From Myxococcota bacterium (GTDB lineage: Bacteria; Myxococcota_A; UBA9160; UBA6930): 64,000 nt of DNA. Below are positions 12,127-38,225 of this stretch, one piece after another. Where the stretch lies: assembly GCA_965223415.1 (NCBI GenBank), contig OZ245002.1:4896001-4960000 (forward strand). Reading direction: 5' to 3'. Under the pieces are notes generated by a model. The model had not been told where the DNA came from. It worked only from the letters and a program-made list of their open reading frames with translations, and made no database searches. The position numbers and the translations under genes are program-made. Position 1 is the stretch's first letter. Every line of letters begins with the position of its first letter.

Positions 12127-12269
12127 GTGCCGGACCGTAGCCCTCCCACGCCGTTGGTTGCCCTACCCCGCAGCAGATTCCAGGATTGCTCGCGTTCAAT
12201 GCCATACCGAAGACGGCCGATGTTGTACCTCGCCGCCTTCCCATGGCCTTACTCGCGAGGACCTCGAGG

Positions 12270-12726
12270 ATGCCCGGCCGCAACAAGCTCAAGCTGACGA
12301 AGACCGCCGTCGAGACGCGCTGCCGCTTGCCGGAGGGGCGGCGCCAGGCCATCTACTGGGACACGGAGATCCCGGGCTTCGGGCTCCGGGTCGGTCAGAG
12401 GACCCGGACCTACATCCTCCAGCGGGACCTTCCGGGAGGCCGGACCCGGCGCGTGACGATCGGCCGCCACGGCGCCTGGACCGTTCAGCAGGCGCGGAAG
12501 AAGGCCCGCGAGCTGATCGCCCGCATCGACGAGGGCGAGGACCCCAACGCCACCCGGCGGGCCCGGGCGGCCCGGGGCGTCACACTCCGGCAGGCCCTGG
12601 ACATCCACCTGAGGCGGCTGGAGGCAAAGGATGCAAGCGAGCGAACGAAAGAGACCCTCCAGGACGAGGTCCCCCGCCACCTGGGCGACTGGCTGGACCG
12701 GCCCCTGATCGAAATCCGGCGACAGC
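12270..12726 (+). pseudogene. Tyrosine integrase N-terminus (arm-DNA-binding/DUF4102-type), truncated by IS21
   Basis: YWDTEIPGFGLRV...RRVTIGRHGAWTVQQARKKAREL..GEDP motif; no catalytic domain; reading frame runs into the IS end at 12727. Confidence 0.85.
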
Positions 12727-12861
12727 TGTCGAGGGACGTCATCTCTTGCGCGCTAAGAGGACGGCTAGTTTTGCGCACCCCCCTGGGTTGATGTTCGGTT
12801 CTTCCTTCTTCTCTTCCGCTCTCCGAAGGAGAGCACGGCCGTCAGGCCGCCCTCTGGGGCC

Positions 12862-13662
12862 TCAACGCTGGGCGCTTTGCCCCGCGGCCTGCTCGAGCTC
12901 GCGGAGCCGGTAGCTCCGCCCCGAGATGTTGAGCACCTGGCTGTGGTGGAGGAGGCGATCGAGGATGGCGGTGGCCAGCACCTCGTCGCCCGCCAGCACC
13001 TCGGGCCAGTCGGCGATGCCCTTGTTCGTGGTGATCAGGATCGAGCCCCTCCCATAGCGGTAGGAGACGAGCCGGAAGAAGAGGCTCGCCTCCTGGCGCG
13101 TCATGGGCTCGAAGCCGACCTCGTCGATGACGAGGAGCGCCACGTTCATGTGCTTGCGCCGCCGCAGCCGTTGCGGGCTGATCTCGGCGTCGCGCTTGAG
13201 GGCCGCCAGCAGGTCCTCGAGGCGATGGAAGGCCACGGAGAAGCCGTTCTCCACGGCCCGCACCCCCAGGGCCACCGCCAGGTGGGTCTTGCCCACTCCC
13301 GGCGGACCCTGGATCAGCAGACTCTCCTTGGCCCGGATCCACGCGCAGGTGCCCAGCGTCTCGATCCGGCTCCGCTCCACACTCGGCTGGAAGGCGAAGT
13401 CGAAGTTGCCGAGGGTCTGCCCCGTGGGAAGGCCCGAGAGACGGAGCGAGGTCTTCATCCTCCGCTCCTCGCGGTGCTGCAGCTCGGCCTCGAGCAGCAG
13501 GTCGAGGAAGCGGTGGGGCACGAGGTCGTCCTTGGTCGCTCGGGCCAGCTCCTCGCCGATGTGCTCGGCCGCGTGATGGAGGCCGAGGCGCACGAGCCGC
13601 TCGCGGGTCGGGTCGAGATCCACCTTGCCGCCCTTCTTGGGCACCGGGTTTCCCGCCGTCAT
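12862..13662 (-). CDS. istB: IS21 helper ATPase IstB
   Basis: GPPGVGKTHLA Walker A, LLVIDEVG, AILDRLLHH; ATGA overlap with istA. Confidence 0.95.
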   Translation of the reverse strand: MTAGNPVPKKGGKVDLDPTRERLVRLGLHHAAEHIGEELARATKDDLVPHRFLDLLLEAELQHREERRMKTSLRLSGLPTGQTLGNFDFAFQPSVERSRIETLGTCAWIRAKESLLIQGPPGVGKTHLAVALGVRAVENGFSVAFHRLEDLLAALKRDAEISPQRLRRRKHMNVALLVIDEVGFEPMTRQEASLFFRLVSYRYGRGSILITTNKGIADWPEVLAGDEVLATAILDRLLHHSQVLNISGRSYRLRELEQAAGQSAQR

Positions 13663-14945
13663 CGCGCCACCTCCGCCAGATCGGCATAGAGGTCGATCGG
13701 CCGCTGCTCCGGCTCCATCGCCCACAGCTCCTGGAGGCGTCGACCCATGCGCCCGAGCGGTACGGGCGCCTCCACCCCCTCCGTGCTCGGCCCCTCGTAG
13801 TGGCTCGGGTCCAGCAGCAGGCGGCTTCGCGTGTGGCGCGGGTGCGCGGCCACCACCGAGCCCTCGGCCCAGACCTGCACCTGCCGGGCGCAGCCGCGCA
13901 CCTCGACGCTCTGCTCGACGAAGCGGAAGGGGACGCTGTAGGTACGCCCCTCGAAGCGCACCGTGGCGTCGCGCCCGACACGTCGCATCACGGCCAGGTC
14001 GAAGGGCTCGGGAAGCCGCTCGGGCAGGGCCCCGAGATGGGGCTTCTCCGCCTCCCACGCCTGGAAGACCGTCGTGCCCGTCGCCGGGCACTGCCGCCGG
14101 TGGCTCGAGCGCGCCACCTGGCCGTCCGTCCACGCTTGCAGCGACTCCAGGCTCTCGTGCTCCCGCCGACGCGGATCGAAGCCCCGCCGGTGCCCCAGGA
14201 TCCGACGCTCCACCTTCCCCTTCTCCTGCGGCTGGCGGGGACGGGTGGCGTCCACGTGGAAGCGAAGGGCCCCGGCATAGCTCGCGTAAGCCGGGTTCAC
14301 CGTCCCCCATGGCCCCGCCCCCTTCGCCACCGCTGTCTTCACGTTGTCGACCCGCAGCACCGCCGGCACCCCGCCCAGCCGCTCGAAGGCCCGGTTGTGC
14401 ACGTCCAGCCACGCCAGCGTGTCCGCCCGCTCCGACCACACCACCGCTTCTCGCCGCGAGTGCGAGAGCACCAGGTGGAAGGCATGCAGGTCCACCTCCT
14501 GGCCCCCGATCCGCACGCCCGGAAACTCGCCCCAGTCCACCTGACCCTGCGCCCCGGGCGGTGTCTCCACCCGACGCCGGCTCCGCACCTTCGGTCTCGG
14601 GAACCGGGCCCGCACGTACCGCTGCACGCTCTTGGAGCTCCCCGTGTACCCGTGCTCCTCCACCAGGAACTCGTGAAGCTCCTGCAGGTTCACGCCACGG
14701 CCTCCCGAGCTCGCCTCCAGCCACTCCGCGATCACCTCGTGGACCGCCTCGGCCAGGAAGGGCTTCCCGCTCCGGCCGTCTCGCGCCCCCTCCGCCAGCC
14801 GCTTCAGCCGGTAGCGCACCGCGCTCTCCCGGATCCCCAGCTGGCGGGCGATCTCCCGGTTCGAGCACCCCCGCTCGTGCAGCACTTCGATCGTCATCAC
14901 TTCCTCCTGCCTCAGTCGCCGCTGCCCCACGCCCCCCTCCCTCAC
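13659..14945 (-). CDS. istA: IS21 transposase IstA
   Basis: HTH, ETPPGAQGQVDWG, VDNVKTAV, EKGKVER. Confidence 0.95.
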   Translation of the reverse strand: MREGGVGQRRLRQEEVMTIEVLHERGCSNREIARQLGIRESAVRYRLKRLAEGARDGRSGKPFLAEAVHEVIAEWLEASSGGRGVNLQELHEFLVEEHGYTGSSKSVQRYVRARFPRPKVRSRRRVETPPGAQGQVDWGEFPGVRIGGQEVDLHAFHLVLSHSRREAVVWSERADTLAWLDVHNRAFERLGGVPAVLRVDNVKTAVAKGAGPWGTVNPAYASYAGALRFHVDATRPRQPQEKGKVERRILGHRRGFDPRRREHESLESLQAWTDGQVARSSHRRQCPATGTTVFQAWEAEKPHLGALPERLPEPFDLAVMRRVGRDATVRFEGRTYSVPFRFVEQSVEVRGCARQVQVWAEGSVVAAHPRHTRSRLLLDPSHYEGPSTEGVEAPVPLGRMGRRLQELWAMEPEQRPIDLYADLAEVAR

Positions 14946-15028
14946 GGGGAACGTGCCGCGCAGCGGCTCAACAGGAGGTGCGCAAATCTACGTGTCCTCT
15001 TAGCCCTCGAATATCACGTCCTGCGACA

Positions 15029-15520
15029 ACGCTCGAAGCGCACGGCATCTCGGTCGTGCTCTCGGGTGGAGCCGTCGTCTCGATCTACTCCGATGCGGAG
15101 TACGTCTCGTACGATCTCGATTTCATTCCCACGGGCCTCGCACGGAAAGTCGACACCGCCATGGAATCCCTCGGCTTCAAGAAGACCCAGCGGCACTGGA
15201 CGCATCCAAAGAGCCGCTACTGAGTCGAGTTCCCACCCGGCCCGGTGGCGATCGGAGACGAAACGATCCGCAGCTTCGCCGAGCGCGAGACGCGAATGGG
15301 GACGCTGCGACTGCTGGCTCCGACCGAGTGCGTCATGGACCGGCTCGCCGGGTACTTCCACGATGCGGACACGCAGTGCCTCGAACAGGCGATCCAGGTC
15401 GCGACGCGGCATCCCGTCGATCTGAAGCGCATCGCGAGGTGGGCGCGCGCTGAGCGGCCTCATGGTGAGGAACGCTACCGGGAGTTCGAGCGGCGGCTAC
15501 GCGAGACCGCGGGTCGGTAG
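15029..15520 (+). pseudogene. 5'-truncated, nonsense-interrupted paralog of the nucleotidyltransferase-like gene at 28244-28795
   Basis: TLEAHGISVVLSGGAVVSIYSDAEYVSYDLDFIP nearly identical to the paralog; TGA at 15221-15223 where the paralog has TGG. Confidence 0.85.
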
Positions 15521-15599
15521 CCGCTCTGACTGGCAGGATTCGAACCCCCGACCCTTGTATCTACTCCACTCACCCGGATCTGGTTCAATAGGGTCAGAA

Positions 15600-15790
15600 C
15601 GGGTTTCGGGGGAGGGTCGCCGTCCCGACCCAGAGGCATGGTCCTCGTACCTGAGAGAGGCGCCCTCGCCCGATCTCGCAAGCTCGAACGGTATCCCGAG
15701 GCAGCGGTCTGCCGCTCGTCCTCGCATGCACAAGGAAGAGCACCGAGGTCGGCACCGAGGCTCCCGACGCTCCCGTTCGAGGAGGAAGAA
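15600..15790 (+). ncRNA. Predicted IS110 bridge RNA (also present in copies 2 and 3)
   Basis: Target loop CCCGACCC (15624-31) and ACCTGAG (15649-55); donor loop ACGGTATC (15688-95) and ACAAG (15730-34); each loop has an inner hairpin; boundaries approximate. Confidence 0.8.
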
Positions 15791-15794
15791 GGGG

Positions 15795-16970
15795 ATGCGC
15801 TTCGTTGGGATCGACATCGCCTCGGAAACGCACGTCGTCGCGATGGTGGGAGAAGACGGGGGCGTGCTGCTGAAGCCGGTCTCGTTCCGGGAGGAGGCGG
15901 CTGGCTACGCACTGCTGTGGGAGAAGCTGGGAGGCCCCGAGGACACGCTCGTAACGCTCGAGGCAACGGGGCACTACTGGAAGAACCTGTTCGCGGCGCT
16001 TGCGGCGAGGGGTTTTGCCGTGGCGTTGATCAACCCGCTGCGCAGTCGCCGGTTCGCACAAGAAGACTTGGAGCGGACGAAGACCGACGCAATCGATGCG
16101 CTCGGCCTGGCTCGCTTCGGAGCACAGAAGCGTCCGAGGGTGACTCGCCTTCCGGACGCGGCGACAGAAGAGCTTCGTGAGCTCGTCCGGCTCCGCGATC
16201 GTCTGGTTCAGGACTTCGGGGACTGCACCCGGCGGCTCCACCGCATGGTCGATCTGGGCTTCCCAGAGCTCAAACGGTACGTGAAGCACCTCGATAGCCA
16301 GCTGTCGACGGGGCTGCTGCGGGAGTACCCCACGGCAAGAGCCTTCCAGGAAGCCTCTGTGGGGCGCGTGGCAAAGCTTCGCTACGACGGTCGTCATCGT
16401 GTAGGCGATGCGCTCGCGAAGCAGCTCGTCGAGGCTGCGCAGAACTCGGTGGGCGCCCATCATGGCCCGGCCTACCAGGTGCAGGTGCGTTACCTGTGCG
16501 AAGACATGGACGTCTTGCGCAAGAGACTCGGCGACATCGACCGCGACATCGCGGATCAGCTATCCGCGCACGAGGTCGGAAGCTTGCTGACGACGATCGA
16601 TGGGATCGGGCCGACGACGGCAGCACGGCTCATCGCGGAGCTCGGTGACCCGGCCGACTTCGCCACGGCCGCAGCCCTCGCCGCCTACGTGGGCGTCGTT
16701 CCAGGCCTAAAGCAGTCGGGCAAGCGCCAAGGCAAACGCGGGAACCTCTCGCCAATCGGTCACGCGCGGCTACGTCGCGCACTGTGGATGCCGACGTTGG
16801 TCGCCGTTCGGAAGAACCCCTGGGTGCGGGCCCACTACGAGCGGCTGCGCGACAACGGCAAGCCCGCAAAGGTCGCGCTGATCGCCTCGACGAGGAAGCT
16901 GCTCATCGCGGTTCACGTCGTGGCGAGGACCCGCAAGCCCTTCGTTCCACAGCTAGAGACCAACCCATGA
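15795..16970 (+). CDS. IS110 recombinase/transposase
   Basis: FVGIDIAS, LEATGHYW, KTDAIDA (DEDD); GVVPGLKQSGK (catalytic Ser region). Confidence 0.95.
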   Translation: MRFVGIDIASETHVVAMVGEDGGVLLKPVSFREEAAGYALLWEKLGGPEDTLVTLEATGHYWKNLFAALAARGFAVALINPLRSRRFAQEDLERTKTDAIDALGLARFGAQKRPRVTRLPDAATEELRELVRLRDRLVQDFGDCTRRLHRMVDLGFPELKRYVKHLDSQLSTGLLREYPTARAFQEASVGRVAKLRYDGRHRVGDALAKQLVEAAQNSVGAHHGPAYQVQVRYLCEDMDVLRKRLGDIDRDIADQLSAHEVGSLLTTIDGIGPTTAARLIAELGDPADFATAAALAAYVGVVPGLKQSGKRQGKRGNLSPIGHARLRRALWMPTLVAVRKNPWVRAHYERLRDNGKPAKVALIASTRKLLIAVHVVARTRKPFVPQLETNP

Positions 16971-17605
16971 ACCGAGAAAACCGGGCCCAGCCCCTTGCTG
17001 AAGATCACGGTATCTCAGGTTCGAAGCCTGATGCTCGATGTCGAGCCACCGGACAGCGCACTTCGAAGAACCGCGTGCATCCAGGCGTCAAGGGTCCGAG
17101 ATCAGGCGCTCCGCGCAACAACCAAGCACGACCAAAGTGCGGAACCAAGCACCGCCAGAACGCGAATTCCTCAGCGAATCCGGCGGCTTCTGGCGGGGCG
17201 GACGGGACTCGAACCTACAACCTCCGGCTGTAAGTCCGCGGAAACGCAGGGGTCCGAAGAGGTGAAGCTTGTATCCCGTTGTATCCCAACCGGGGCACGC
17301 CGGGCCAGGTAGGGCGATGGGGCGGCGGCGGGTAGCCGCCATCCCTCGGGTCCGCGAGCGAGCCCCCTTGCCAGCGCCTCGACGTGAGCTAAATCGGCAT
17401 TGGATCGCACGCAGACATCCCGGGGTCGAGGCCAAGGCGGCGTAGCCCCGGCATGGCTCTTGCGCGCGCCTTGTTGAGGATGTCGCCCGGGTCCGGGTGA
17501 GCTTCGCGTCCCCGCACTGCGGGGGCACGCATCTCCATCTCTTCAGGGCGCCACCGGTCCGCGATCGCGGCGCCCTGTCCCCTCGGCCGGGCGACGTGGG
17601 CCGGC

Positions 17606-22847: not shown

Positions 22848-23140
22848 ACCCCCAGGTTCGAAGCCTGGTGCTCAACCTCGCTCCGCGCGGACACGAGCGC
22901 GCGTGTCGGCGAAGCTGGAACCCGCTTGGTTCCCGGATGTATCCCGCGCGCGTCGCGGCTCGACAACCGCTGCTCGCGCGTGGACTTACGCGCGAAGCGT
23001 GCGGGTTCCGAGAAACCCGAAAAGCTGAATGAAATCAGCTTGATGGCGGGGCGGACGGGACTCGAACCTACAACCTCCGGCTGTAACCTCCCGGAAACAC
23101 AGGGGTCCGAAGAGATGAAGCTTGTATCCCGTTGTATCCC
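22848..23140 (-). repeat. Junction repeat J2
   Basis: acccccaggttcgaagcctggtgctc (22848-73); tRNA-Asp-like half 23044-23086; ttgtatcccgttgtatccc 23122-23140. Confidence 0.85.
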
Positions 23141-23258
23141 GACTTCGCCGGATCGCCATCGGGATGCTTGGCCACCGGCCTTCCGCCAGGACCGAGCCCG
23201 TGCGGAGCCGTGTGGCGCGCGCCTTGCCGTCATGACTGAATCCAACTATCGTACGTAC

Positions 23259-23486
23259 ATGACGAAGAGGCTGACGCGCTCTGGAAACAGCCTGGCCCTC
23301 GTGATCGATCGGCCTCTCCTGGAAGCGCTGGAAATCGACGCGGACACGGAGCTGGAGCTCTCCACCGATGGAGACGTCCTAGTCGTGACCCCGCTGCGCG
23401 ACCCCAAGCGGAGGCGTCGGGTCGCCGAGCTCGTTGCCGAAGCCCACGAGCAGTACGGCGGCGTGTTCCGACGCCTCGCCGAGTGA
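23259..23486 (+). CDS. AbrB/MazE-type antitoxin
   Basis: MTKRLTRSGNSLALVIDRPLLEAL swapped-hairpin motif; overlaps the toxin gene. Confidence 0.9.
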   Translation: MTKRLTRSGNSLALVIDRPLLEALEIDADTELELSTDGDVLVVTPLRDPKRRRRVAELVAEAHEQYGGVFRRLAE

Positions 23487-23875
23487 CCGACCCGCTCTTC
23501 CTGACCCTCGACGAGGTTCTGGCGATCCACGCCGATCAGATCCGGCGCTACGGCGGGCGGACTGGGCTGCGAGACATCGGCTTGCTGCAATCGGCGTTGG
23601 GCATGCCCGAGGCCACCTTCGAGGGCGAGTTCCTTCACGGGACGGTCTTCGAAATGGCCGCCGCCTACCTGTTCCACATCGCCCGCAACCACCCGTTCGT
23701 GGACGGCAACAAGCGAACAGCACTCATGTGCGCACTGGTGTTCCTCGGACTGAGCGGTTGGCGACTCGAGGCGGAGTCGGAGGCGCTCTACGAGCTGGTC
23801 GACGGCGTTGCCGCGGGGTCGATCGACAAGGCCGGGGTCGCGGTCTTCCTGCGCCAGAACTCCGTCAGCCGCTAG
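23483..23875 (+). CDS. doc: Doc/Fic family toxin
   Basis: HPFVDGNKRTA Fic motif. Confidence 0.9.
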   Translation: MTDPLFLTLDEVLAIHADQIRRYGGRTGLRDIGLLQSALGMPEATFEGEFLHGTVFEMAAAYLFHIARNHPFVDGNKRTALMCALVFLGLSGWRLEAESEALYELVDGVAAGSIDKAGVAVFLRQNSVSR

Positions 23876-23917: not shown

Positions 23918-24190
23918 GACTCGAACCCCCGACCCCCCGGTTCGAAGCCTGATGCTCAACCCCGTGCGGCGAGTCGCGTGGATGCAGGCGTCAGGAGTCC
24001 GAGATCAGGCGCTCGCCGCGACAACCAAACGCAACCAAAGGCCGGAACCAAGCACCGCCAGAATGCGAATTCCCCTGCGAATCCGGCTACTTCTGGCGGG
24101 GCGGACGGGACTCGAACCTACAACCTCCGGCTGTAACTCCGCGGAAACGCAGGGGTCCAGGGAGCTGAAGCTGGTATCCCGTTGTATCCC
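23918..24190 (-). repeat. Junction repeat J3 (most complete uninterrupted copy)
   Basis: gactcgaacccccgaccccccggttcgaagcctgatgctc; accaa repeats; tRNA-Asp-like half 24094-24136; gtatccc x2. Confidence 0.9.
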
Positions 24191-24241
24191 GACCTCCGAT
24201 CGCGCTCCGACATCTGATAGCCAATTGGCTATTATTCGAGC

Positions 24242-24568
24242 ATGTCGATCGCGAGCATCGTCCGCGAGGCCCGCCGCCGCGCGGGCCTCACCCAGGCCGC
24301 GTTGGCGGAGAAGGCGGGCGTTCCCAAGTCCACCGTCGGCCGGATCGAGTCTGGGGCGCGAACACCTTCGGTGGAGCTCGTGGAGCGACTCGTCGAGGCG
24401 GCTGGTCTGGAGGTCACGATTGCCCTGTCGGAACCCGATCCCGGCACCGACTCGATGTTCGAACGCACGCTGCGCCGCACCCCTGCAGAGCGGCTCGCCG
24501 ATGCGACGCGAGTCGCGCGCTTCGTCTTGCGCGGCAAGCGCCAGATCGCGGCCGCTTCCGATGGCTAG
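24242..24568 (+). CDS. XRE-family HTH protein (putative antitoxin)
   Basis: ARRRAGLTQAALAEKAGVPKSTVGRIESG. Confidence 0.9.
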   Translation: MSIASIVREARRRAGLTQAALAEKAGVPKSTVGRIESGARTPSVELVERLVEAAGLEVTIALSEPDPGTDSMFERTLRRTPAERLADATRVARFVLRGKRQIAAASDG

Positions 24569-25104: not shown

Positions 25105-26566
25105 CTTGTATCTACTCCACTCACCCGGATCTGGTTCAATAGGGTCAGAACGGGTTTCGGGGGAGGGTCGCCGTCCCGACCCAGAGGCATGGTCCTCGTA
25201 CCTGAGAGAGGCGCCCTCGCCCGATCTCGCAAGCTCGAACGGTATCCCGAGGCAGCGGTCTGCCGCTCGTCCTCGCATGCACAAGGAAGAGCACCGAGGT
25301 CGGCACCGAGGCTCCCGACGCTCCCGTTCGAGGAGGAAGAAGGGGATGCGCTTCGTTGGGATCGACATCGCCTCGGAAACGCACGTCGTCGCGATGGTGG
25401 GAGAAGACGGGGGCGTGCTGCTGAAGCCGGTCTCGTTCCGGGAGGAGGCGGCTGGCTACGCACTGCTGTGGGAGAAGCTGGGAGGCCCCGAGGACACGCT
25501 CGTAACGCTCGAGGCAACGGGGCACTACTGGAAGAACCTGTTCGCGGCGCTTGCGGCGAGGGGTTTTGCCGTGGCGTTGATCAACCCGCTGCGCAGTCGC
25601 CGGTTCGCACAAGAAGACTTGGAGCGGACGAAGACCGACGCAATCGATGCGCTCGGCCTGGCTCGCTTCGGAGCACAGAAGCGTCCGAGGGTGACTCGCC
25701 TTCCGGACGCGGCGACAGAAGAGCTTCGTGAGCTCGTCCGGCTCCGCGATCGTCTGGTTCAGGACTTCGGGGACTGCACCCGGCGGCTCCACCGCATGGT
25801 CGATCTGGGCTTCCCAGAGCTCAAACGGTACGTGAAGCACCTCGATAGCCAGCTGTCGACGGGGCTGCTGCGGGAGTACCCCACGGCAAGAGCCTTCCAG
25901 GAAGCCTCTGTGGGGCGCGTGGCAAAGCTTCGCTACGACGGTCGTCATCGTGTAGGCGATGCGCTCGCGAAGCAGCTCGTCGAGGCTGCGCAGAACTCGG
26001 TGGGCGCCCATCATGGCCCGGCCTACCAGGTGCAGGTGCGTTACCTGTGCGAAGACATGGACGTCTTGCGCAAGAGACTCGGCGACATCGACCGCGACAT
26101 CGCGGATCAGCTATCCGCGCACGAGGTCGGAAGCTTGCTGACGACGATCGATGGGATCGGGCCGACGACGGCAGCACGGCTCATCGCGGAGCTCGGTGAC
26201 CCGGCCGACTTCGCCACGGCCGCAGCCCTCGCCGCCTACGTGGGCGTCGTTCCAGGCCTAAAGCAGTCGGGCAAGCGCCAAGGCAAACGCGGGAACCTCT
26301 CGCCAATCGGTCACGCGCGGCTACGTCGCGCACTGTGGATGCCGACGTTGGTCGCCGTTCGGAAGAACCCCTGGGTGCGGGCCCACTACGAGCGGCTGCG
26401 CGACAACGGCAAGCCCGCAAAGGTCGCGCTGATCGCCTCGACGAGGAAGCTGCTCATCGCGGTTCACGTCGTGGCGAGGACCCGCAAGCCCTTCGTTCCA
26501 CAGCTAGAGACCAACCCATGAACCGAGAAAACCGGGCCCAGCCCCTTGCTGAAGATCACGGTATCT
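25105..26566 (+). mobile_element. IS110-family element copy 2
   Basis: Same sequence as copy 1; CT cores at 25105-06 and 26565-66. Confidence 0.95.
25346..26521 (+). CDS. IS110 recombinase/transposase
   Basis: Protein identical to copy 1. Confidence 0.95.
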   Translation: MRFVGIDIASETHVVAMVGEDGGVLLKPVSFREEAAGYALLWEKLGGPEDTLVTLEATGHYWKNLFAALAARGFAVALINPLRSRRFAQEDLERTKTDAIDALGLARFGAQKRPRVTRLPDAATEELRELVRLRDRLVQDFGDCTRRLHRMVDLGFPELKRYVKHLDSQLSTGLLREYPTARAFQEASVGRVAKLRYDGRHRVGDALAKQLVEAAQNSVGAHHGPAYQVQVRYLCEDMDVLRKRLGDIDRDIADQLSAHEVGSLLTTIDGIGPTTAARLIAELGDPADFATAAALAAYVGVVPGLKQSGKRQGKRGNLSPIGHARLRRALWMPTLVAVRKNPWVRAHYERLRDNGKPAKVALIASTRKLLIAVHVVARTRKPFVPQLETNP

Positions 26567-26887: not shown

Positions 26888-27133
26888 ATGAAGACGACAG
26901 TCGAGATTCCGGATCCGCTGGCCGACGAAGCCAAGGCCGTCGCGCAGCGCGACAAGACCACGCTTCGCGAGCTCATCGAGACGGGACTTCGACTGGTGCT
27001 TCGAGAGCGACGGCGCAAGACCCGCTTTCGCCTTTGCGACGCCAGCTTCCGAGGACGCGGGCTTCAGCCGGAGTACCAGGACGAAGACTGGCAGCGGATT
27101 CGAAACGCTGCCTACAAGGGCCGCGGCGGTTGA
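26888..27133 (+). CDS. VapB-like RHH antitoxin (DUF2191-like)
   Basis: MKTTVEIPDPL..AKAVA..TTLRELIETGLR. Confidence 0.85.
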   Translation: MKTTVEIPDPLADEAKAVAQRDKTTLRELIETGLRLVLRERRRKTRFRLCDASFRGRGLQPEYQDEDWQRIRNAAYKGRGG

Positions 27134-27564
27134 TCGCCGTCGACACGAATCTCCTCGTCTACGCCCACCGCGCAGAATCCGATTGGCACGGTCGAGCTGC
27201 GGCATGCGTTCGCGAGCTCGCAGACGCGAGAGCGCCGTGGGCCATCCCGTGGCCATGCATCCACGAGTTCCTCGCCATCGCGACCCATCCCAGGATCTGG
27301 GACCCGCCCTCGCCCACGGAGGCGGCGCTCGACCAGGTCGAAGCCTGGATCGAATCGCCCGGGCTGGTCTTGCTCGCGGAGGGCGCGGATCACTGGAGCG
27401 AGCTTCGCGGCCTGGTCGAGGCCAGTCGCATCGTGGGGCCGCGGGTCCACGACGCGCGCATCGCAGCTCTTTGCCGCGCGCATGGCGTACGCGAACTATG
27501 GACAGCGGACCGCGACTTCAGCCGGTTCTCGAGCCTCGTCACGGTGAACCCGCTGACTCGCTAG
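27130..27564 (+). CDS. vapC: VapC/PIN-domain toxin
   Basis: IAVDTNLLVYA, HDARIAAL, TADRDF. Confidence 0.9.
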   Translation: MIAVDTNLLVYAHRAESDWHGRAAACVRELADARAPWAIPWPCIHEFLAIATHPRIWDPPSPTEAALDQVEAWIESPGLVLLAEGADHWSELRGLVEASRIVGPRVHDARIAALCRAHGVRELWTADRDFSRFSSLVTVNPLTR

Positions 27565-27589: not shown

Positions 27590-27796
27590 CGATCCCCAAC
27601 CCTCGGGGTTGGAGCCCAACCAGGCGCTCGTGGCGACAACCGAGCACGACCAAAGCGCGGAACCAAGCGCCGCCAGAACGCGAATTCCTCAGCGAATCCG
27701 GCGGCTCGTGGCGGGTCGGACGGGACTCGAACCTACAACCCCCGGCCGTAACCCCTCGGAAACGCAAGGGTTCGTAGGACTGCAGCTTGTATCCCG
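27590..27796 (-). repeat. Junction repeat J5 (degenerate Arg half, conserved spacer and Asp-like half)
   Basis: caggcgctc..acaaccgagcacgaccaaagcgcggaaccaag..; tggcgggtcggacgggactcgaacctacaacc 27709-51. Confidence 0.85.
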
Positions 27797-27840
27797 CCAT
27801 CGCCCCGCCCTCCCTGGGCCTTGCGCCCGGGCTTGGGCCA

Positions 27841-28247: not shown

Positions 28248-28795
28248 ACGCGCAGCATCGGATCGACGAGGACACCTCCCTCGAGGAGGTCGCCGCTCTC
28301 GTCTGCACGACCCTCGAGGCGCACGGCATCTCGGTCGTGCTCTCCGGCGGCGCCGTCGTCTCGATCTACTCCGACGCCGAATACGTCTCCTACGACCTGG
28401 ACTTCATCCCGATCGGACTCGCTCGGAAAGTCGATGGCGCCATGGAGTCACTCGGCTTCGAGAAGCGGCAGCGCCACTGGACGCATCACCGAAGCCGGTA
28501 CTGGGTCGAGTTCCCTCCCGGCCCCGTCGCCATCGGGGAAGAGACGATTCGCAGCTTTGCGGAACGCGAGACCCGGGCAGGGACCCTGCGCCTCCTCGCT
28601 CCGACCGAGTGCGTGATGGATCGGCTGGCCTGGTATTTCCATGACGCGGACACGCAGTGCCTCGAGCAGGCGGTTCGTGTTGCGACGCTCCAGCCGGTGG
28701 ACCTGAAGCGCATCGAACGGTGGGCGCGCGGCGAAGGGCCTCGTGGCGAGGAGCGATTTCGGGAGTTCGAGCGGAGGCTGCACGAGAAGAAATGA
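28244..28795 (+). CDS. Nucleotidyltransferase-fold protein (putative toxin)
   Basis: VLSGGAVVSIYS..SYDLDF; GTGA overlap with the wHTH gene. Confidence 0.75.
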   Translation: MNAQHRIDEDTSLEEVAALVCTTLEAHGISVVLSGGAVVSIYSDAEYVSYDLDFIPIGLARKVDGAMESLGFEKRQRHWTHHRSRYWVEFPPGPVAIGEETIRSFAERETRAGTLRLLAPTECVMDRLAWYFHDADTQCLEQAVRVATLQPVDLKRIERWARGEGPRGEERFREFERRLHEKK

Positions 28796-28816: not shown

Positions 28817-29047
28817 GGTGCAGGGGGGTGCAATAGGGTGCAGGGAGGTGTCGTTTCGACGGCACCGAACCGCGGGACGGCACCATACAGAGCGCGAACG
28901 GGTAGGTTCCGGACCTGCCCGAGCGGGATTCGAACCCCCGACCCCCAGGTTCGAAGCCTGAACGGACCCGTAGGAAATCCAAATGGTTGCGCGATTCCGA
29001 GCGGGAATGAACGGGAATACGCGGGAATACGGGCACAAAATGGTCAC
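28817..29047 (-). repeat. Junction repeat J6 (GGTG x4, tRNA-Arg(UCG) half, GGGAAT x3)
   Basis: gggattcgaacccccgacccccaggttcgaagcctg 28925-60; flanking repeats phased at 10 bp. Confidence 0.85.
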
Positions 29048-33079: not shown

Positions 33080-34541
33080 CTTGTATCTACTCCACTCACC
33101 CGGATCTGGTTCAATAGGGTCAGAACGGGTTTCGGGGGAGGGTCGCCGTCCCGACCCAGAGGCATGGTCCTCGTACCTGAGAGAGGCGCCCTCGCCCGAT
33201 CTCGCAAGCTCGAACGGTATCCCGAGGCAGCGGTCTGCCGCTCGTCCTCGCATGCACAAGGAAGAGCACCGAGGTCGGCACCGAGGCTCCCGACGCTCCC
33301 GTTCGAGGAGGAAGAAGGGGATGCGCTTCGTTGGGATCGACATCGCCTCGGAAACGCACGTCGTCGCGATGGTGGGAGAAGACGGGGGCGTGCTGCTGAA
33401 GCCGGTCTCGTTCCGGGAGGAGGCGGCTGGCTACGCACTGCTGTGGGAGAAGCTGGGAGGCCCCGAGGACACGCTCGTAACGCTCGAGGCAACGGGGCAC
33501 TACTGGAAGAACCTGTTCGCGGCGCTTGCGGCGAGGGGTTTTGCCGTGGCGTTGATCAACCCGCTGCGCAGTCGCCGGTTCGCACAAGAAGACTTGGAGC
33601 GGACGAAGACCGACGCAATCGATGCGCTCGGCCTGGCTCGCTTCGGAGCACAGAAGCGTCCGAGGGTGACTCGCCTTCCGGACGCGGCGACAGAAGAGCT
33701 TCGTGAGCTCGTCCGGCTCCGCGATCGTCTGGTTCAGGACTTCGGGGACTGCACCCGGCGGCTCCACCGCATGGTCGATCTGGGCTTCCCAGAGCTCAAA
33801 CGGTACGTGAAGCACCTCGATAGCCAGCTGTCGACGGGGCTGCTGCGGGAGTACCCCACGGCAAGAGCCTTCCAGGAAGCCTCTGTGGGGCGCGTGGCAA
33901 AGCTTCGCTACGACGGTCGTCATCGTGTAGGCGATGCGCTCGCGAAGCAGCTCGTCGAGGCTGCGCAGAACTCGGTGGGCGCCCATCATGGCCCGGCCTA
34001 CCAGGTGCAGGTGCGTTACCTGTGCGAAGACATGGACGTCTTGCGCAAGAGACTCGGCGACATCGACCGCGACATCGCGGATCAGCTATCCGCGCACGAG
34101 GTCGGAAGCTTGCTGACGACGATCGATGGGATCGGGCCGACGACGGCAGCACGGCTCATCGCGGAGCTCGGTGACCCGGCCGACTTCGCCACGGCCGCAG
34201 CCCTCGCCGCCTACGTGGGCGTCGTTCCAGGCCTAAAGCAGTCGGGCAAGCGCCAAGGCAAACGCGGGAACCTCTCGCCAATCGGTCACGCGCGGCTACG
34301 TCGCGCACTGTGGATGCCGACGTTGGTCGCCGTTCGGAAGAACCCCTGGGTGCGGGCCCACTACGAGCGGCTGCGCGACAACGGCAAGCCCGCAAAGGTC
34401 GCGCTGATCGCCTCGACGAGGAAGCTGCTCATCGCGGTTCACGTCGTGGCGAGGACCCGCAAGCCCTTCGTTCCACAGCTAGAGACCAACCCATGAACCG
34501 AGAAAACCGGGCCCAGCCCCTTGCTGAAGATCACGGTATCT
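33080..34541 (+). mobile_element. IS110-family element copy 3
   Basis: Same sequence as copy 1; CT cores at 33080-81 and 34540-41. Confidence 0.95.
33321..34496 (+). CDS. IS110 recombinase/transposase
   Basis: Protein identical to copy 1. Confidence 0.95.
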   Translation: MRFVGIDIASETHVVAMVGEDGGVLLKPVSFREEAAGYALLWEKLGGPEDTLVTLEATGHYWKNLFAALAARGFAVALINPLRSRRFAQEDLERTKTDAIDALGLARFGAQKRPRVTRLPDAATEELRELVRLRDRLVQDFGDCTRRLHRMVDLGFPELKRYVKHLDSQLSTGLLREYPTARAFQEASVGRVAKLRYDGRHRVGDALAKQLVEAAQNSVGAHHGPAYQVQVRYLCEDMDVLRKRLGDIDRDIADQLSAHEVGSLLTTIDGIGPTTAARLIAELGDPADFATAAALAAYVGVVPGLKQSGKRQGKRGNLSPIGHARLRRALWMPTLVAVRKNPWVRAHYERLRDNGKPAKVALIASTRKLLIAVHVVARTRKPFVPQLETNP

Positions 34542-35686: not shown

Positions 35687-36448
35687 CTACCGCGCCGGGG
35701 CCTCCTTCGGCAAGGCGGTGGTCTTCTTGGTGCGCCAGCTGCGGGGTCCGCACTTGAGCAGGTGGCCGTGGTGGAGGAGGCGGTCGAGCATGGCGGTGAC
35801 GGCTGCCGTGTCGCCGAGGAGCCGGCCCCAGTCGTCGACGGGTCGGTTCGAGGTGACGAGGGTGCTGGTGCGCTCGTAGCGGCGCATGATCAGCTCGAGG
35901 AGGTCCTCGGCGGCCGTGGTGGGGAGCTTGCGCATGCCGAGGTCGTCGAGGATGAGCAGCGGCACGCTCGCGATCTCGGCCAGGTACTCCTTGCGGGTGC
36001 CGTCGAGGGTCGCATCAGCGAGTTCCTCGAGGAGGACGTGGACCTCGCGGTAGGCGACGCGATGGCCCTGGTGGATGACGGCGAGGCCGATCGCCTGGGC
36101 GAGATGGCTCTTGCCCGTGCCCGGCGGGCCGAGGAAGACAGCGTCCTCGGCTTGCTCGAGGAAGCGGCCCGTGGCGAGCTCGAAGACCAGGGCGCGATCG
36201 ATCTTCGTATTGAAGCGGAAGTCGAAGCCGTTGAGGGTCCGGTTGGCGTCGCGGAAGCGGGCCTGCTTGATGCGCCGGGCCAGCAGTCGGTCCTGCCGGC
36301 GCTCGAGCTCGTCCTGGACGAGCGCCGAGAGCAGGTCGATGGCCGCCCACTCGCCCTTCTGGGCTTCGAGGAGCCGCATCTCCAGATGCTCGGCCATGCC
36401 CGAGAGCCGGAGCTTGCGCAGTGCGGGATCGAGTTCAGTCAGATTCAC
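35687..36448 (-). CDS. istB: IS21 helper ATPase IstB
   Basis: GPPGTGKSHLA, LILDDLG, AMLDRLLHH. Confidence 0.95.
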   Translation of the reverse strand: MNLTELDPALRKLRLSGMAEHLEMRLLEAQKGEWAAIDLLSALVQDELERRQDRLLARRIKQARFRDANRTLNGFDFRFNTKIDRALVFELATGRFLEQAEDAVFLGPPGTGKSHLAQAIGLAVIHQGHRVAYREVHVLLEELADATLDGTRKEYLAEIASVPLLILDDLGMRKLPTTAAEDLLELIMRRYERTSTLVTSNRPVDDWGRLLGDTAAVTAMLDRLLHHGHLLKCGPRSWRTKKTTALPKEAPAR

Positions 36449-38024
36449 GAGAGGTCTCCTCGGTGCGGCGATCGATGAGATCGCGGTAGTGGGTGAGCTG
36501 GCGGATGAGCGGGTCCACCTGCTTGAGCGAGAGCGGCAGCTCGGGCTGACGCTCCAGGTAGCGCTTGACGAACGCGTAGGTGGGCAGCTCGAGGGCCAGG
36601 GCGGTGGCGCAGGCATCGTCGACGCGAGGGATGCCGTGGCGCTTGCACAGGGAGAGCACGCCCAGGATGCGACGCACCCCGGGCTCGCCGTCCAGGCGAT
36701 GGATCGCCTCACACACCTCGCCCACGTGGACGCCGGCGCGCCGGGCCCGCGCGAGCAGCTGGAGGGTCGTGGCCGGCGTCCGCTTCGGGCGGTCCTCCTC
36801 CCGCATCCTGCGGCGCCCCCGCCTCTGGCGGACGTGCTCGCGCAGCAGCTCCCCCGTCTGCAGATCGAGCATCCGCACCCGCAGCCCGTCCCATTGGACG
36901 GCCACCCGCCGCCCCAGCCAGCCCGGCGGCGCGTGGTAGTAGGCCCCCTCCACCTCGATGGCCCCGTCGAGGTGCACCGTGCGCTCGCCGTGCTGGTAGT
37001 AGCGGAAGGGCTCGATGGGAAGCCCGAGCAGGTGCGGCTTCTCCTCTTCGTACATCGCCGCCACCTGGCGCTTGGTCGTGCCGTGGATGCGGGTGTCGGC
37101 CCATCGGCGCTCCCAGCGGTCGAGGTAGGCCTGGGCCTGCTCGAGCGACTCGAAGCGCATCCCGCGGACCTTCTGCTGCGCGTGGCGCACCCCGGACTCG
37201 ACCTTCCCCTTGCGATCGGGGTGGCGCACCCGGCACGGAAGCGCCGTCACGCCGTAGTGGGCGAGCACATCGCGGTAGAGGGGGTTGAGCGCGGGGTCGT
37301 AGACGTCGGGCTTGAGAACGCCCTCCTTGAGGTTGTCGAGGACGACGGTGCGCGGTGCACCGCCCAGCCGGCGGAAGGCCTTCTCGTGCAGCTCCGACCA
37401 GACCTGGCTGCTCGACTTCCACACGAGCAGCCGAACGCACTTGCGGCTGTAGCCCAGGGTGAAGACGAACAGCCTCGTGCGCCGGTACTTCCCCGACCCG
37501 GGATGCCGCACCATCGGCCCGTCGCCGTAGTCGACCTGGCCCTCTTCTCCCGGTGCCGTCTCGATCACCGGGTGCGCCTCGCGCGGCGCCGCGGCTCGCT
37601 GCTTCGCCACGAAGCGCTTCACACTCGCATAGCTGAAGGCGAAGCCGTGGTCATCGACTAGGTCCTGCCAGATCGCCATCGCCGTCCGGCCCTGGCGCAC
37701 GCCCGCCTCGATCCACTCGCGGTAGGGCTCGCAGGCGCTGGCCTGGGGGCTCCGGCCCGGCATCGGCGGCCAGGCCGGATCGGTGGACGCCTCTTTGGCC
37801 GCTTTTGCCGGGGCCTTCGAGTCGGTGGACGCCTCTATGGCCGGGTTTGGGGCCCCGTGCCCCCAGCGACCAGGAGATCGCACCGCGATCCCCGCGGCCC
37901 GGAGGTAACGGCTCGCCGTCTCCCGGCGCACGCCCGTCGCCTCCTCGATCCGCCGAAGCGACCAGCCGAGGCGGCCAAGTGCCAGAATCTGCTCGCGTTT
38001 CTCGTTGCCCAGAAGGTTCGCCAT
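36435..38024 (-). CDS. istA: IS21 transposase IstA
   Basis: ETAPGEEGQVDYG, LDNLKEGV, RKGKVESGV. Confidence 0.95.
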   Translation of the reverse strand: MANLLGNEKREQILALGRLGWSLRRIEEATGVRRETASRYLRAAGIAVRSPGRWGHGAPNPAIEASTDSKAPAKAAKEASTDPAWPPMPGRSPQASACEPYREWIEAGVRQGRTAMAIWQDLVDDHGFAFSYASVKRFVAKQRAAAPREAHPVIETAPGEEGQVDYGDGPMVRHPGSGKYRRTRLFVFTLGYSRKCVRLLVWKSSSQVWSELHEKAFRRLGGAPRTVVLDNLKEGVLKPDVYDPALNPLYRDVLAHYGVTALPCRVRHPDRKGKVESGVRHAQQKVRGMRFESLEQAQAYLDRWERRWADTRIHGTTKRQVAAMYEEEKPHLLGLPIEPFRYYQHGERTVHLDGAIEVEGAYYHAPPGWLGRRVAVQWDGLRVRMLDLQTGELLREHVRQRRGRRRMREEDRPKRTPATTLQLLARARRAGVHVGEVCEAIHRLDGEPGVRRILGVLSLCKRHGIPRVDDACATALALELPTYAFVKRYLERQPELPLSLKQVDPLIRQLTHYRDLIDRRTEETSRESD

Positions 38025-38225
38025 GGCGGCGGGGGATCGCAGGTCCCTCGCCGTCGTCAACGTCCTGGGCGTCAGCCCCTATGGCCGCTTTTCAGACGTC
38101 CTTCTATGGCCGGTTTTGGGTGTCCACCGAGGGAGAGAGTCGAGGCGGGCGACGATCCCTTCGCGGTCGTCGAGGTCGAGGACGGGAGGCTCGGGCTGGG
38201 ACATGGCTCAGGAGTTCGCGGTGCG

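What the first reader, a model, noticed from the sequence alone, without database searches (positions are those of the whole stretch)
15600..15790. Readable IS110 bridge RNA programmed against the tRNA-Arg(UCG) sequence
Seen: the reconstituted target is CCCGACC-CT-CAGGT and the donor (circle junction) is ACGGTAT-CT-TGTAT. The non-coding left end contains CCCGACCC (15624-31) and ACCTGAG (15649-55, reverse complement of CTCAGGT) around a GAGG/CCTC hairpin. It then contains ACGGTATC (15688-95) and ACAAG (15730-34, reverse complement of CTTGT) around a CGAGG/CCTCG hairpin. Known: this matches the two-loop bridge RNA layout of IS110/IS621 recombinases with a CT core. Inference: a natural bridge recombinase directed at tRNA-derived att sites.
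Basis: partly seen in the sequence, partly recalled or inferred. Interest (0 to 1): 0.85.

Follow-up and report, generated by a model that had tools for sequence, protein, structure and literature searches.

The report
IS110 bridge RNA aimed at tRNA-like repeats
This is an ordinary member of the known IS110/IS621 class of RNA-guided insertion sequences, and its guide RNA can be read directly: it matches a tRNA-Arg-like repeat that three identical copies have invaded.

Summary
All four motifs and both hairpins sit at the stated coordinates, and the LTG-hairpin-RTG pattern occurs 3 times against 0.01 expected.

The element is a 1460-bp IS110-family insertion sequence with a DEDD and Tnp recombinase. 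Its 240-nt left end folds, across 43 relatives, into the two-internal-loop scaffold of the IS621 bridge RNA.

In relatives:
- The variable loop bases track each element's own flanks, with 0 of 10,000 permutations matching.
- The handshake base pairs with target position 7 in 38 of 40 loci.
- A split -35/-10 promoter spans the circle junction in 40 of 43.

The window holds three identical copies, all at the same position in tRNA-Arg(UCG)-like sequences. A fourth site matches perfectly except for a CC core instead of CT, and it is empty.

This is a new member of a known kind. The tRNA-like target was not found among 42 relatives or in the held text of Durrant's supplementary files. RNA expression and recombination activity remain untested.

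The parts
15556..17015 (+). IS110-family element, copy 1 (1460 bp counting one CT core). The left core copy is at 15554-15555.
   Evidence: Junctions read. It is identical to the other two copies over the whole body.
25107..26566 (+). IS copy 2, same orientation. Its left target half is CCCAACC, which would give a G-T wobble with the guide.
33082..34541 (+). IS copy 3, same orientation
15547..15553 (+). Left target half (LT), CCCGACC. It corresponds to the 5' strand of the T stem plus the variable loop of the tRNA-like sequence, read on the opposite strand.
17016..17020 (+). Right target half (RT), CAGGT. It corresponds to the 3' strand of the anticodon stem of the tRNA-like sequence, read on the opposite strand.
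15558..15563 (+). -10-like hexamer TATCTA in the left end. It forms a promoter only when the right end is joined to the left end.
16995..17000 (+). -35-like hexamer TTGCTG in the right end, 17 nt from the -10 across the circle junction
   Evidence: TTG sits at this position in 40 of 43 elements.
15612..15667 (+). Target-binding loop module: basal stem 15612-21 with 15659-67, and inner hairpin 15632-47
   Evidence: Consensus structure and pair counts; coordinates mapped
15624..15631 (+). Left target guide, CCCGACCC. It equals LT (7 of 7) plus the first core base. The next base, A15632, is not the U expected for core position 2.
15649..15655 (+). Right target guide, ACCUGAG, the reverse complement of CT+CAGGT
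15656..15657 (+). Handshake positions of the target loop (AG). The A can pair with donor T7. Relatives carry AU in 36 of 40.
   Evidence: definition taken from PMC11208158
15670..15752 (+). Donor-binding loop module: three basal helices (15670-86 with 15737-52) and inner hairpin 15698-15723
15688..15695 (+). Left donor guide, ACGGUAUC. It equals the last 7 nt of the right end plus the first core base.
   Evidence: L004 changes both the guide and its own right end at the same position.
15726..15734 (+). Right donor guide, AU-gc-ACAAG: 9 nt pairing discontiguously with CT+TGTAT
   Evidence: Relatives whose left end starts TGTAA carry UU in place of AU. The published pattern is in PMC11208160 section 7.
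15735..15736 (+). Handshake positions of the donor loop (GA). The G can pair with target C7.
   Evidence: the first position pairs with target position 7 in 38 of 40 loci
15795..16970 (+). Recombinase gene, 391 aa (P0001)
   Evidence: Pfam PF01548 3.4e-36 and PF02371 3.3e-28; PDB matches ISCro4 4.6e-37 and IS621 1.2e-35
17007..17013 (+). Left donor half (LD), ACGGTAT, at the right end of the element
28937..28950 (+). Empty paralogous site, CCCGACC-CC-CAGGT. It differs from the target only at the second core base.
23928..23941 (+). Empty paralogous site, CCCGACC-CC-CCGGT (2 mismatches)

Best explanation
The stretch 15600-15790 is the guide-bearing part of the non-coding left end of an IS110-group insertion sequence of the IS621 type, and it most likely encodes a bridge RNA.

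Proposed mechanism, inferred by homology to IS621: the element excises as a circle. Joining right end to left end brings a -35 (16995-17000) and a -10 (15558-63) together, and these drive a roughly 200-nt RNA. The 391-aa DEDD/Ser recombinase binds this RNA.

[quoted passage not shown] The second loop pairs with the element's own junction, ACGGTAT-CT-TGTAT. Strands are exchanged at the CT core, helped by one handshake base in each loop.

The 14-nt target lies in the anticodon-stem, variable-loop and T-stem part of tRNA-Arg(UCG)-like repeats, so the element has filled every suitable copy in this window.

Shown here: the anatomy, the covariation, the three same-site insertions and the empty CC-core site. 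Inferred: transcription, RNA-protein complex formation and catalysis.
For: Protein:
- Both IS110 domains are present.
- It aligns with the IS621 and ISCro4 recombinases of solved bridge complexes.
- D7, E56, D98, D101 and S308 are invariant in 18 relatives. They align to IS621 chain positions that correspond to D102 and S241 as named in PMC11208158.

RNA scaffold, from 43 left ends:
- RNAalifold predicts 42 pairs.
- For my 40-pair version, 96.9% of cells are paired against 40-50% for slid partners. 20 pairs show changes on both sides. 0 of 500 shuffles reach any of the five measures.

Guides:
- In 34 loci with at least 9 nt of flank on both sides, right-target-guide matches average 4.97 of 7 with the element's own flank and 3.46 with other elements' flanks.
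- Left-target-guide matches average 4.59 against 3.32.
- 0 of 10,000 permutations reach either observed total.
- The window element scores 7 of 7 (left) and 6 of 7 with a run of 5 (right).
- Donor guides change together with the element ends in L004 and in the TGTAA group.

Handshake: the first donor-loop position pairs with target position 7 in 38 of 40 loci, with 0 of 10,000 permutations matching.

Promoter: TTG sits at the -35 place with a 17-nt spacer across the junction in 40 of 43.

Targeting in the window:
- 3 of 3 copies sit at the same position.
- The bodies have 0 differences over 1460 bp while the flanks diverge within about 45 nt, so these are separate insertions and not a duplication.
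- No exact target is left unoccupied. The 1-mismatch site, with a CC core, is empty. This fits the near-invariant core T described in PMC11208158.
Against: - No transcript, circle junction or activity data exist.
- The left end folded on its own is no more stable than shuffles (z = -0.61; 54 of 200 shuffles fold as well).
- The base after the left target guide is A, where most relatives carry the U of the CT core. The second target-loop handshake base is G, not U.
- In relatives the left-guide match is imperfect. Several loci score 2-3 of 7, possibly because MAG assemblies are chimeric.
- The second handshake position shows no signal: 1799 of 10,000 permutations reach the observed count.
- 38 of the 80 fetched loci were dropped before any count, because my end patterns (CTTGTA and GTATCT) did not find both ends. 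The sample therefore leans towards elements with IS621-like ends.
- Rfam has no matching family, so there is no independent model.
Confidence: 0.9

Rival explanations
1. The guide-like matches are chance or carried-over target sequence, and the recombinase finds the tRNA-like DNA by protein recognition alone, for example by recognising its hairpins.
For: The single-sequence fold is not distinguishable from shuffles. The target lies in structured tRNA-like DNA. A preprint reports a target stem-loop as an additional determinant for ISPpu10 (10.64898/2026.03.19.712850; abstract, section 7).
Against: The joint motif is expected 0.01 times and is found in each copy. The right guide is the reverse complement of the target, not a copy, so carry-over does not explain it. 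In relatives with unrelated targets the same loop positions change with the flanks, with 0 of 10,000 permutations matching.
Confidence: 0.04
2. The three copies come from one insertion followed by segmental duplication of a tRNA-like module, so they say nothing about target choice.
For: The surrounding region is built from repeated modules (families D4-D8, D19).
Against: The IS bodies are 100% identical over 1460 bp. The flanks differ within the first 20-45 nt on both sides, and copy 2 differs inside the left target half itself. The modules themselves are only 73-93% alike. A duplication would leave the flanks as similar as the IS.
Confidence: 0.04
3. The anatomy is that of a bridge element, but these copies are now inert, with the RNA or enzyme no longer working, and are merely resident.
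For: The left guide lacks the U of the core. The target-loop handshake is AG, not AU. No activity data exist.
Against: Three copies without a single difference, an intact 391-aa frame and all five catalytic positions conserved point to recent movement. In IS621 the left donor guide also pairs only with the first core base.
Confidence: 0.15

Closest known systems
IS621 of Escherichia coli with its bridge RNA (Durrant et al. 2024, PMC11208160; Hiraizumi et al. 2024, PMC11208158)
   Same: - Same two protein domains and the same catalytic positions.
- CT core.
- Donor junction that differs by one base. IS621-type ACAGTATCTTGTAT is seen in the supplement text; the window has ACGGTAT-CT-TGTAT.
- RNA in the left end with a target loop followed by a donor loop.
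- Left guides read as the top strand and right guides as its reverse complement.
- Left donor guide of 8 nt.
- Right donor guide of 9 nt pairing discontiguously with 7 donor bases.
- Handshake bases directly 3' of the right guides.
- Promoter split across the circle junction.
   Different: - The protein is 391 aa against a 328-residue PDB chain. The matched stretches are query residues 2-139 and 225-384, so residues 140-224 are not matched.
- The right target guide is 7 nt, against 4 nt in wild-type IS621.
- The left target guide covers only the first core base.
- The target is a tRNA-like repeat. That IS621 targets REP elements is recalled and comes from no call.
ISCro4 recombinase (PDB 9t56)
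   Same: Best solved-structure match, E = 4.6e-37, with the same domain order.
   Different: I know only the depositors' name for the molecule. Its RNA and target were not examined here.
ISPpu10 of Pseudomonas putida (preprint 10.64898/2026.03.19.712850)
   Same: It is an IS110 element that inserts into many copies of one repeat, where the left target half is part of a 5' stem-loop in the target DNA. Here the first bases of the left target half belong to the T-arm hairpin of the tRNA-like sequence.
   Different: The ISPpu10 repeat is a REP element, not tRNA-like. Whether the T arm plays the same role here is untested.
Tyrosine integrases of genomic islands and phages that integrate into tRNA genes
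   Same: Site-specific insertion into tRNA sequence, and a neighbourhood with an integrase fragment and repeated tRNA pieces.
   Different: The enzyme is unrelated (DEDD/Ser recombinase). The site is chosen by RNA pairing. No part of the tRNA is restored by the element, so insertion splits the tRNA-like sequence.
IS1111-group elements with seekRNA
   Same: Same family and RNA-guided target choice.
   Different: As recalled, their guide RNA lies in the right end after the gene. Here it lies in the left end, as in the IS110 group.

Membership tests
IS110 family, IS110 group (IS621-type bridge recombinase plus bridge RNA) | Recombinase with the DEDD RuvC-like domain (PF01548) and the Tnp domain (PF02371) | tested here: met
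   124.8 bits (cut-off 29) and 98.3 bits (cut-off 21.3)
IS110 family, IS110 group (IS621-type bridge recombinase plus bridge RNA) | DEDD residues and the catalytic serine are present | tested here: met
   D7, E56, D98, D101 and S308 are invariant in 18 sequences. They align with identical residues of the IS621 chain. D102 and S241 are named in passages of PMC11208158. The PDB chain numbering appears shifted by 2, which is my inference.
IS110 family, IS110 group (IS621-type bridge recombinase plus bridge RNA) | CT core dinucleotide at both junctions and no long terminal inverted repeats | tested here: met
   CT is at both ends of 3 of 3 copies and of the 42 relatives selected by end motifs. Comparing the left end with the reverse complement of the right end gives at most 15 of 30 matches at any offset within 5 nt.
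IS110 family, IS110 group (IS621-type bridge recombinase plus bridge RNA) | Long non-coding left end that folds into two stem-enclosed internal loops, each with an inner hairpin | tested here: met
   7 helices and 20 of 40 pairs with compensatory change
IS110 family, IS110 group (IS621-type bridge recombinase plus bridge RNA) | First-loop segments complementary to the target (left guide to bottom strand, right guide to top strand, core included), changing with the target across relatives | tested here: met
   The left guide pairs with the first core base only.
IS110 family, IS110 group (IS621-type bridge recombinase plus bridge RNA) | Second-loop segments complementary to the element's own joined ends | tested here: met
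   ACGGUAUC and AU..ACAAG. There are two cases of joint change, L004 and the TGTAA group.
IS110 family, IS110 group (IS621-type bridge recombinase plus bridge RNA) | Handshake bases 3' of the right guides that pair with position 7 of the non-cognate DNA | tested here: met
   38 of 40 for the donor-loop base. The target-loop A faces the invariant donor T7 in 39 of 40. The second positions show no signal.
IS110 family, IS110 group (IS621-type bridge recombinase plus bridge RNA) | Promoter reconstituted at the junction of right end and left end | tested here: met
   Sequence only. TTGCTG, 17 nt, TATCTA. TTG is at that place in 40 of 43.
IS110 family, IS110 group (IS621-type bridge recombinase plus bridge RNA) | The RNA is made, binds the recombinase and is required for recombination through a circular intermediate | not testable with these tools
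   Needs RNA-seq, junction PCR and a recombination assay
tRNA gene or tRNA-derived attachment site (as the target) | The restored target folds as a tRNA | tested here: inconclusive
   After in-silico removal of the three copies, ARAGORN calls site 1 tRNA-Arg(tcg), 72 nt, at default settings. The call has a 3-bp D stem and acceptor mismatches. Site 2 is called only at a lowered threshold, and site 3 is not called.
tRNA gene or tRNA-derived attachment site (as the target) | The repeats are junctions of integrated elements, with an integrase and direct repeats of the tRNA 3' part | tested here: inconclusive
   Six pieces share about 45 nt from the anticodon arm to the T loop. Only an N-terminal integrase fragment lies nearby. 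The cassettes between repeats carry Fic, HTH and PIN genes.

The most novel reading that the evidence does not exclude
The element has specialised on a family of tRNA-Arg-derived repeats that punctuate a cassette array in a genomic island. The T-arm hairpin that overlaps the left target half would serve as the REP-like 5' stem-loop gate described for ISPpu10. A single C/T difference at the second core base would decide which repeats can be invaded, which might also spare a genuine tRNA-Arg(UCG) gene. The three identical, same-orientation copies would then make the cassettes between them substrates for RNA-guided or homologous excision, so the IS would act as an organiser of island rearrangement.
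Probability: 0.2. Interest if true: 0.5.

Novelty: new member of a known kind. Interest (0 to 1): 0.3.

Why it matters
The element adds no new principle, because bridge RNAs were described in 2024. It is a clean natural case in three respects.

- The guides can be read by eye, and three insertions confirm them.
- The target class, tRNA-like repeats, was not seen in 42 relatives, nor in the held text of the supplementary files of the founding paper (one file cut, one unreadable).

The aligned set of 43 left ends with known flanks could also seed a covariance model for this RNA, which Rfam 15 did not recognise.

Tried and rejected
- **Rfam.** At gathering thresholds on the whole window there were 0 matches. 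At E up to 10 on 15400-17400 there were three weak matches: sX15 at 23.2 bits against a cut-off of 55, skipping-rope at 16.8 against 36.7, and sR42 at 14.6 against 38. I treat these as chance.
- **Single-sequence folding of the left end.** The result was not better than shuffles, so it was not used as evidence.
- **ARAGORN on the untouched window.** It found only one odd call at 27085-27169 and nothing at the target sites.
- **Plasmid collection, distant mode.** 6 records matched. The best was a Sandaracinus amylolyticus plasmid at 67.9% over 92% of the query. Its element has a different target...GAG-CT-CAGTC, and its right guide matches 7 nt of that. This was not useful for mapping this IS.
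- **Genome-contig scan.** The best relative was 71% identical, and the window's own genome was not returned. Other copies of this IS elsewhere in its genome could therefore not be mapped.
- **Close relatives.** The relatives at 84-99% identity (P0002-P0026) lie on short contigs from sample collections.
- **Second handshake position.** No signal: 1799 of 10,000 permutations reach the observed count.
- **Taxonomic placement of the window.** Not attempted. Only G+C content (69.3% on the excised window) and the Sandaracinus hit are known.
- **Literature.** One search used the terms IS110, bridge RNA, tRNA gene and target site, requiring at least 3 of 4. It returned 50 papers, of which 15 were listed. 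Only one review among the 15 holds 'tRNA gene', once. This is thin ground for saying that a tRNA-like target is unreported.

Full report
**Observation**

These are CCCGACCC 15624-31, ACCTGAG 15649-55, ACGGTATC 15688-95 and ACAAG 15730-34, with GAGG/CCTC and CGAGG/CCTCG stems between them.

The junctions are CCCGACC-CT|TGTATC on the left (core at 15554-55) and ACGGTAT-CT|CAGGT on the right (core at 17014-15). The combined pattern CCCGACCC-N10-30-ACCTGAG occurs three times in the window against 0.01 expected from shuffles.

**The element**

The stretch is the non-coding left end of a 1460-bp insertion sequence (15556-17015). Its single gene (15795-16970, 391 aa) has the DEDD_Tnp_IS110 and Transposase_20 domains.

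The protein's best solved-structure relatives are the ISCro4 and IS621 recombinases, at E = 4.6e-37 and 1.2e-35. D7, E56, D98, D101 and S308 are invariant in an alignment of 18 relatives. They align with identical residues of the IS621 chain. D102 and S241 of IS621 are named as catalytic in passages of PMC11208158.

The ends carry no inverted repeat of note.

The window holds three copies, at 15556, 25107 and 33082, all on the + strand. There is no difference between them over the whole body.

**RNA scaffold**

The left end folded on its own is no better than shuffles (z = -0.61), and Rfam has no matching family. The structure emerges only from comparison with relatives.

A scan of genome contigs with a profile of 18 relatives found 151 related stretches and kept the best 80 as loci, at 55-71% identity. 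In 42 of the 80 loci I could place both ends by the motifs CTTGTA and GTATCT. The other 38 were dropped because contigs were short or ends had diverged.

The 43 left ends align into a conserved scaffold. It consists of a basal stem, an internal loop with an inner hairpin, a second set of basal stems, and a second internal loop with an inner hairpin.

For 40 pairs in 7 helices, 96.9% of cells form standard pairs, against 40-50% when partners are slid by 1-3 columns. 20 pairs show changes on both sides, and 0 of 500 shuffles reach any of the five measures. In window coordinates the target loop module is 15612-15667 and the donor loop module is 15670-15752.

**Guides**

According to PMC11208160 (passages, section 7) and PMC11208158 (passages):
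- The right guides pair with the top strand of core plus right halves.
- The IS621 left donor guide is 8 nt.
- The right donor guide pairs 9 RNA bases discontiguously with 7 donor bases.
- Two bases 3' of each right guide, the handshake guides, pair with positions 6-7 of the other DNA after strand exchange.

The window element fits each point:
- Left target guide CCCGACCC equals the left target half (7 of 7) plus core C.
- Right target guide ACCUGAG is the reverse complement of CT+CAGGT.
- Left donor guide ACGGUAUC equals the right-end terminus plus core C.
- Right donor guide AU-gc-ACAAG matches CT+TGT..AT.
- Donor-loop handshake G faces target C7.
- Target-loop handshake A faces donor T7.

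Across relatives the scaffold is constant while the loop segments vary with each element's own flanks. In the 34 loci with at least 9 nt of flank on both sides, right-guide matches average 4.97 of 7 for the element's own flank and 3.46 for other elements' flanks. Left-guide matches average 4.59 against 3.32. 0 of 10,000 permutations reach either observed total.

The donor-loop handshake base pairs with target position 7 in 38 of 40 loci, again with 0 of 10,000 permutations matching.

Donor guides change jointly with element ends in two cases. L004 has AGGGUAUC with a right end of CGGGTATCT. The group whose left end starts TGTAA carries UU instead of AU.

Points that fit less well:
- The base after the left guide is A, not the U of the core. 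L001 is similar.
- The second target-loop handshake base is G, not U.
- Several MAG loci have poor left-guide matches.
- The second handshake position shows no signal (1799 of 10,000).

**Promoter**

Joining right end to left end places TTGCTG (16995-17000) 17 nt upstream of TATCTA (15558-63). TTG is at that place in 40 of 43 elements, and two more have it one base away. This is the arrangement reported for IS621, where the RNA is expressed from the circular form.

**Target**

All three copies are at the same position of sequences that share about 45 nt. Read on the minus strand, these run from an anticodon arm with loop CUUCGAA (anticodon UCG) through the variable loop to a T loop.

After in-silico removal of the copies, ARAGORN gives three different outcomes:
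- Site 1 is called tRNA-Arg(tcg) at default settings, with a weak D arm and acceptor stem.
- Site 2 is called only at a lowered threshold.
- Site 3 is not called, although it ends in a plausible acceptor 3' strand plus CCA.

Copy 2 has CCCAACC in place of CCCGACC. That would give a guide-G to DNA-T wobble, a pair also seen in the IS621 structure.

The flanks diverge within 20-45 nt while the IS bodies are identical, so these are three insertions and not one duplicated block.

Three further paralogous pieces are empty:
- 28937-50 differs from the target only by CC instead of CT at the core.
- 23928-41 has two differences.
- 22844-57 has three.

No exact target remains free in the window. The empty CC-core site agrees with the statement that the second core base T is almost invariant and is read by the protein.

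**Context**

From about 12 to 38 kb the window is a mosaic of mobile DNA:
- a P4-type integrase N-terminal fragment;
- two IS21-type elements;
- Fic, HTH and PIN genes;
- a RimK/AstE/MFS block.

These are separated by repeated modules that each hold the Arg-like piece and a second tRNA-3'-end-like piece. The outer parts look chromosomal. 'tRNA-derived' is therefore well founded, while 'att site' remains a reasonable inference.

**Comparison and novelty**

The element works like IS621, and it passes every sequence-testable membership feature of the IS110 group.

Its donor junction 14-mer occurs 154 and 507 times in two supplementary files of PMC11208160, so its clade was already in the founding covariation data set. 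Its target 14-mer occurs 0 times there, though one file was cut when stored and one was unreadable.

None of the 42 relatives sits in a tRNA-like sequence after in-silico excision. A literature search found no paper linking IS110 bridge elements with tRNA-gene targets, but that search was narrow.

A preprint on ISPpu10 reports that the left target half of its REP target is part of a 5' stem-loop that adds specificity. Here the first bases of the left target half belong to the T-arm hairpin. This is a lead, not a result.

**Verdict**

This is a new member of a known kind, so interest is modest. The value lies in a tidy natural specificity experiment and an unusual target class. Expression and activity are untested.

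Noticed in passing
window 17191-17290, 23044-23143, 24094-24193, 27709-27808: A second repeat is present in four copies. It starts like the 3' end of a tRNA read on the opposite strand (TGGCGGGGCGGACGGGACTCGAACC) and ends ...GCTTGTATCCCGTTGTATCCC. In three of the four copies its CTTGTATC equals the core plus the first six bases of the IS left end; the 24094 copy reads CTGGTATC. Whether this is a half-site, a relic or chance is unexplained.
   Followed up: partly
window 12186-12788 and 13662-14945: An integrase N-terminal fragment (Arm-DNA-bind_3, 3.7e-15) is followed by an IS21-type IstA on the minus strand (Mu-transpos_C_2, rve). The integrase gene may have been cut by the IS21 element.
   Followed up: no
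window 35690-38060: A second IS21-type element, with IstB (2e-61) and IstA on the minus strand, lies just right of IS110 copy 3.
   Followed up: no
window 23483-23872, 24242-24565, 27034-27561: Small cassettes between the tRNA-like modules carry a Fic/DOC protein, an HTH_3 protein and a PIN-domain protein. These are likely toxin-antitoxin parts.
   Followed up: no
window 27085-27169 (minus strand): ARAGORN reports an 85-nt tRNA-like call with a two-base anticodon, labelled SeC|Leu. It is probably another degenerate tRNA-derived piece.
   Followed up: no
window 15026-15325 and 28307-28606: An 81% identical 300-nt repeat lies just left of two of the Arg-like sites, one occupied and one empty. 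The copy near 15222 appears to carry an in-frame stop. Pfam finds no family for either.
   Followed up: partly
window 15589-15712 (minus strand): There is a weak Rfam match to Xanthomonadaceae sRNA sX15 (23.2 bits, cut-off 55, E = 0.41) on the strand opposite the bridge RNA scaffold. I treat it as chance, but sX15 was not checked for being an IS110 left end.
   Followed up: no
L016, L038, L041, L054 (left flanks): Four relatives from different MAGs share the left flank GGCCCTGCGGCG, with matching left guides. This suggests a common repeat target in those genomes.
   Followed up: no
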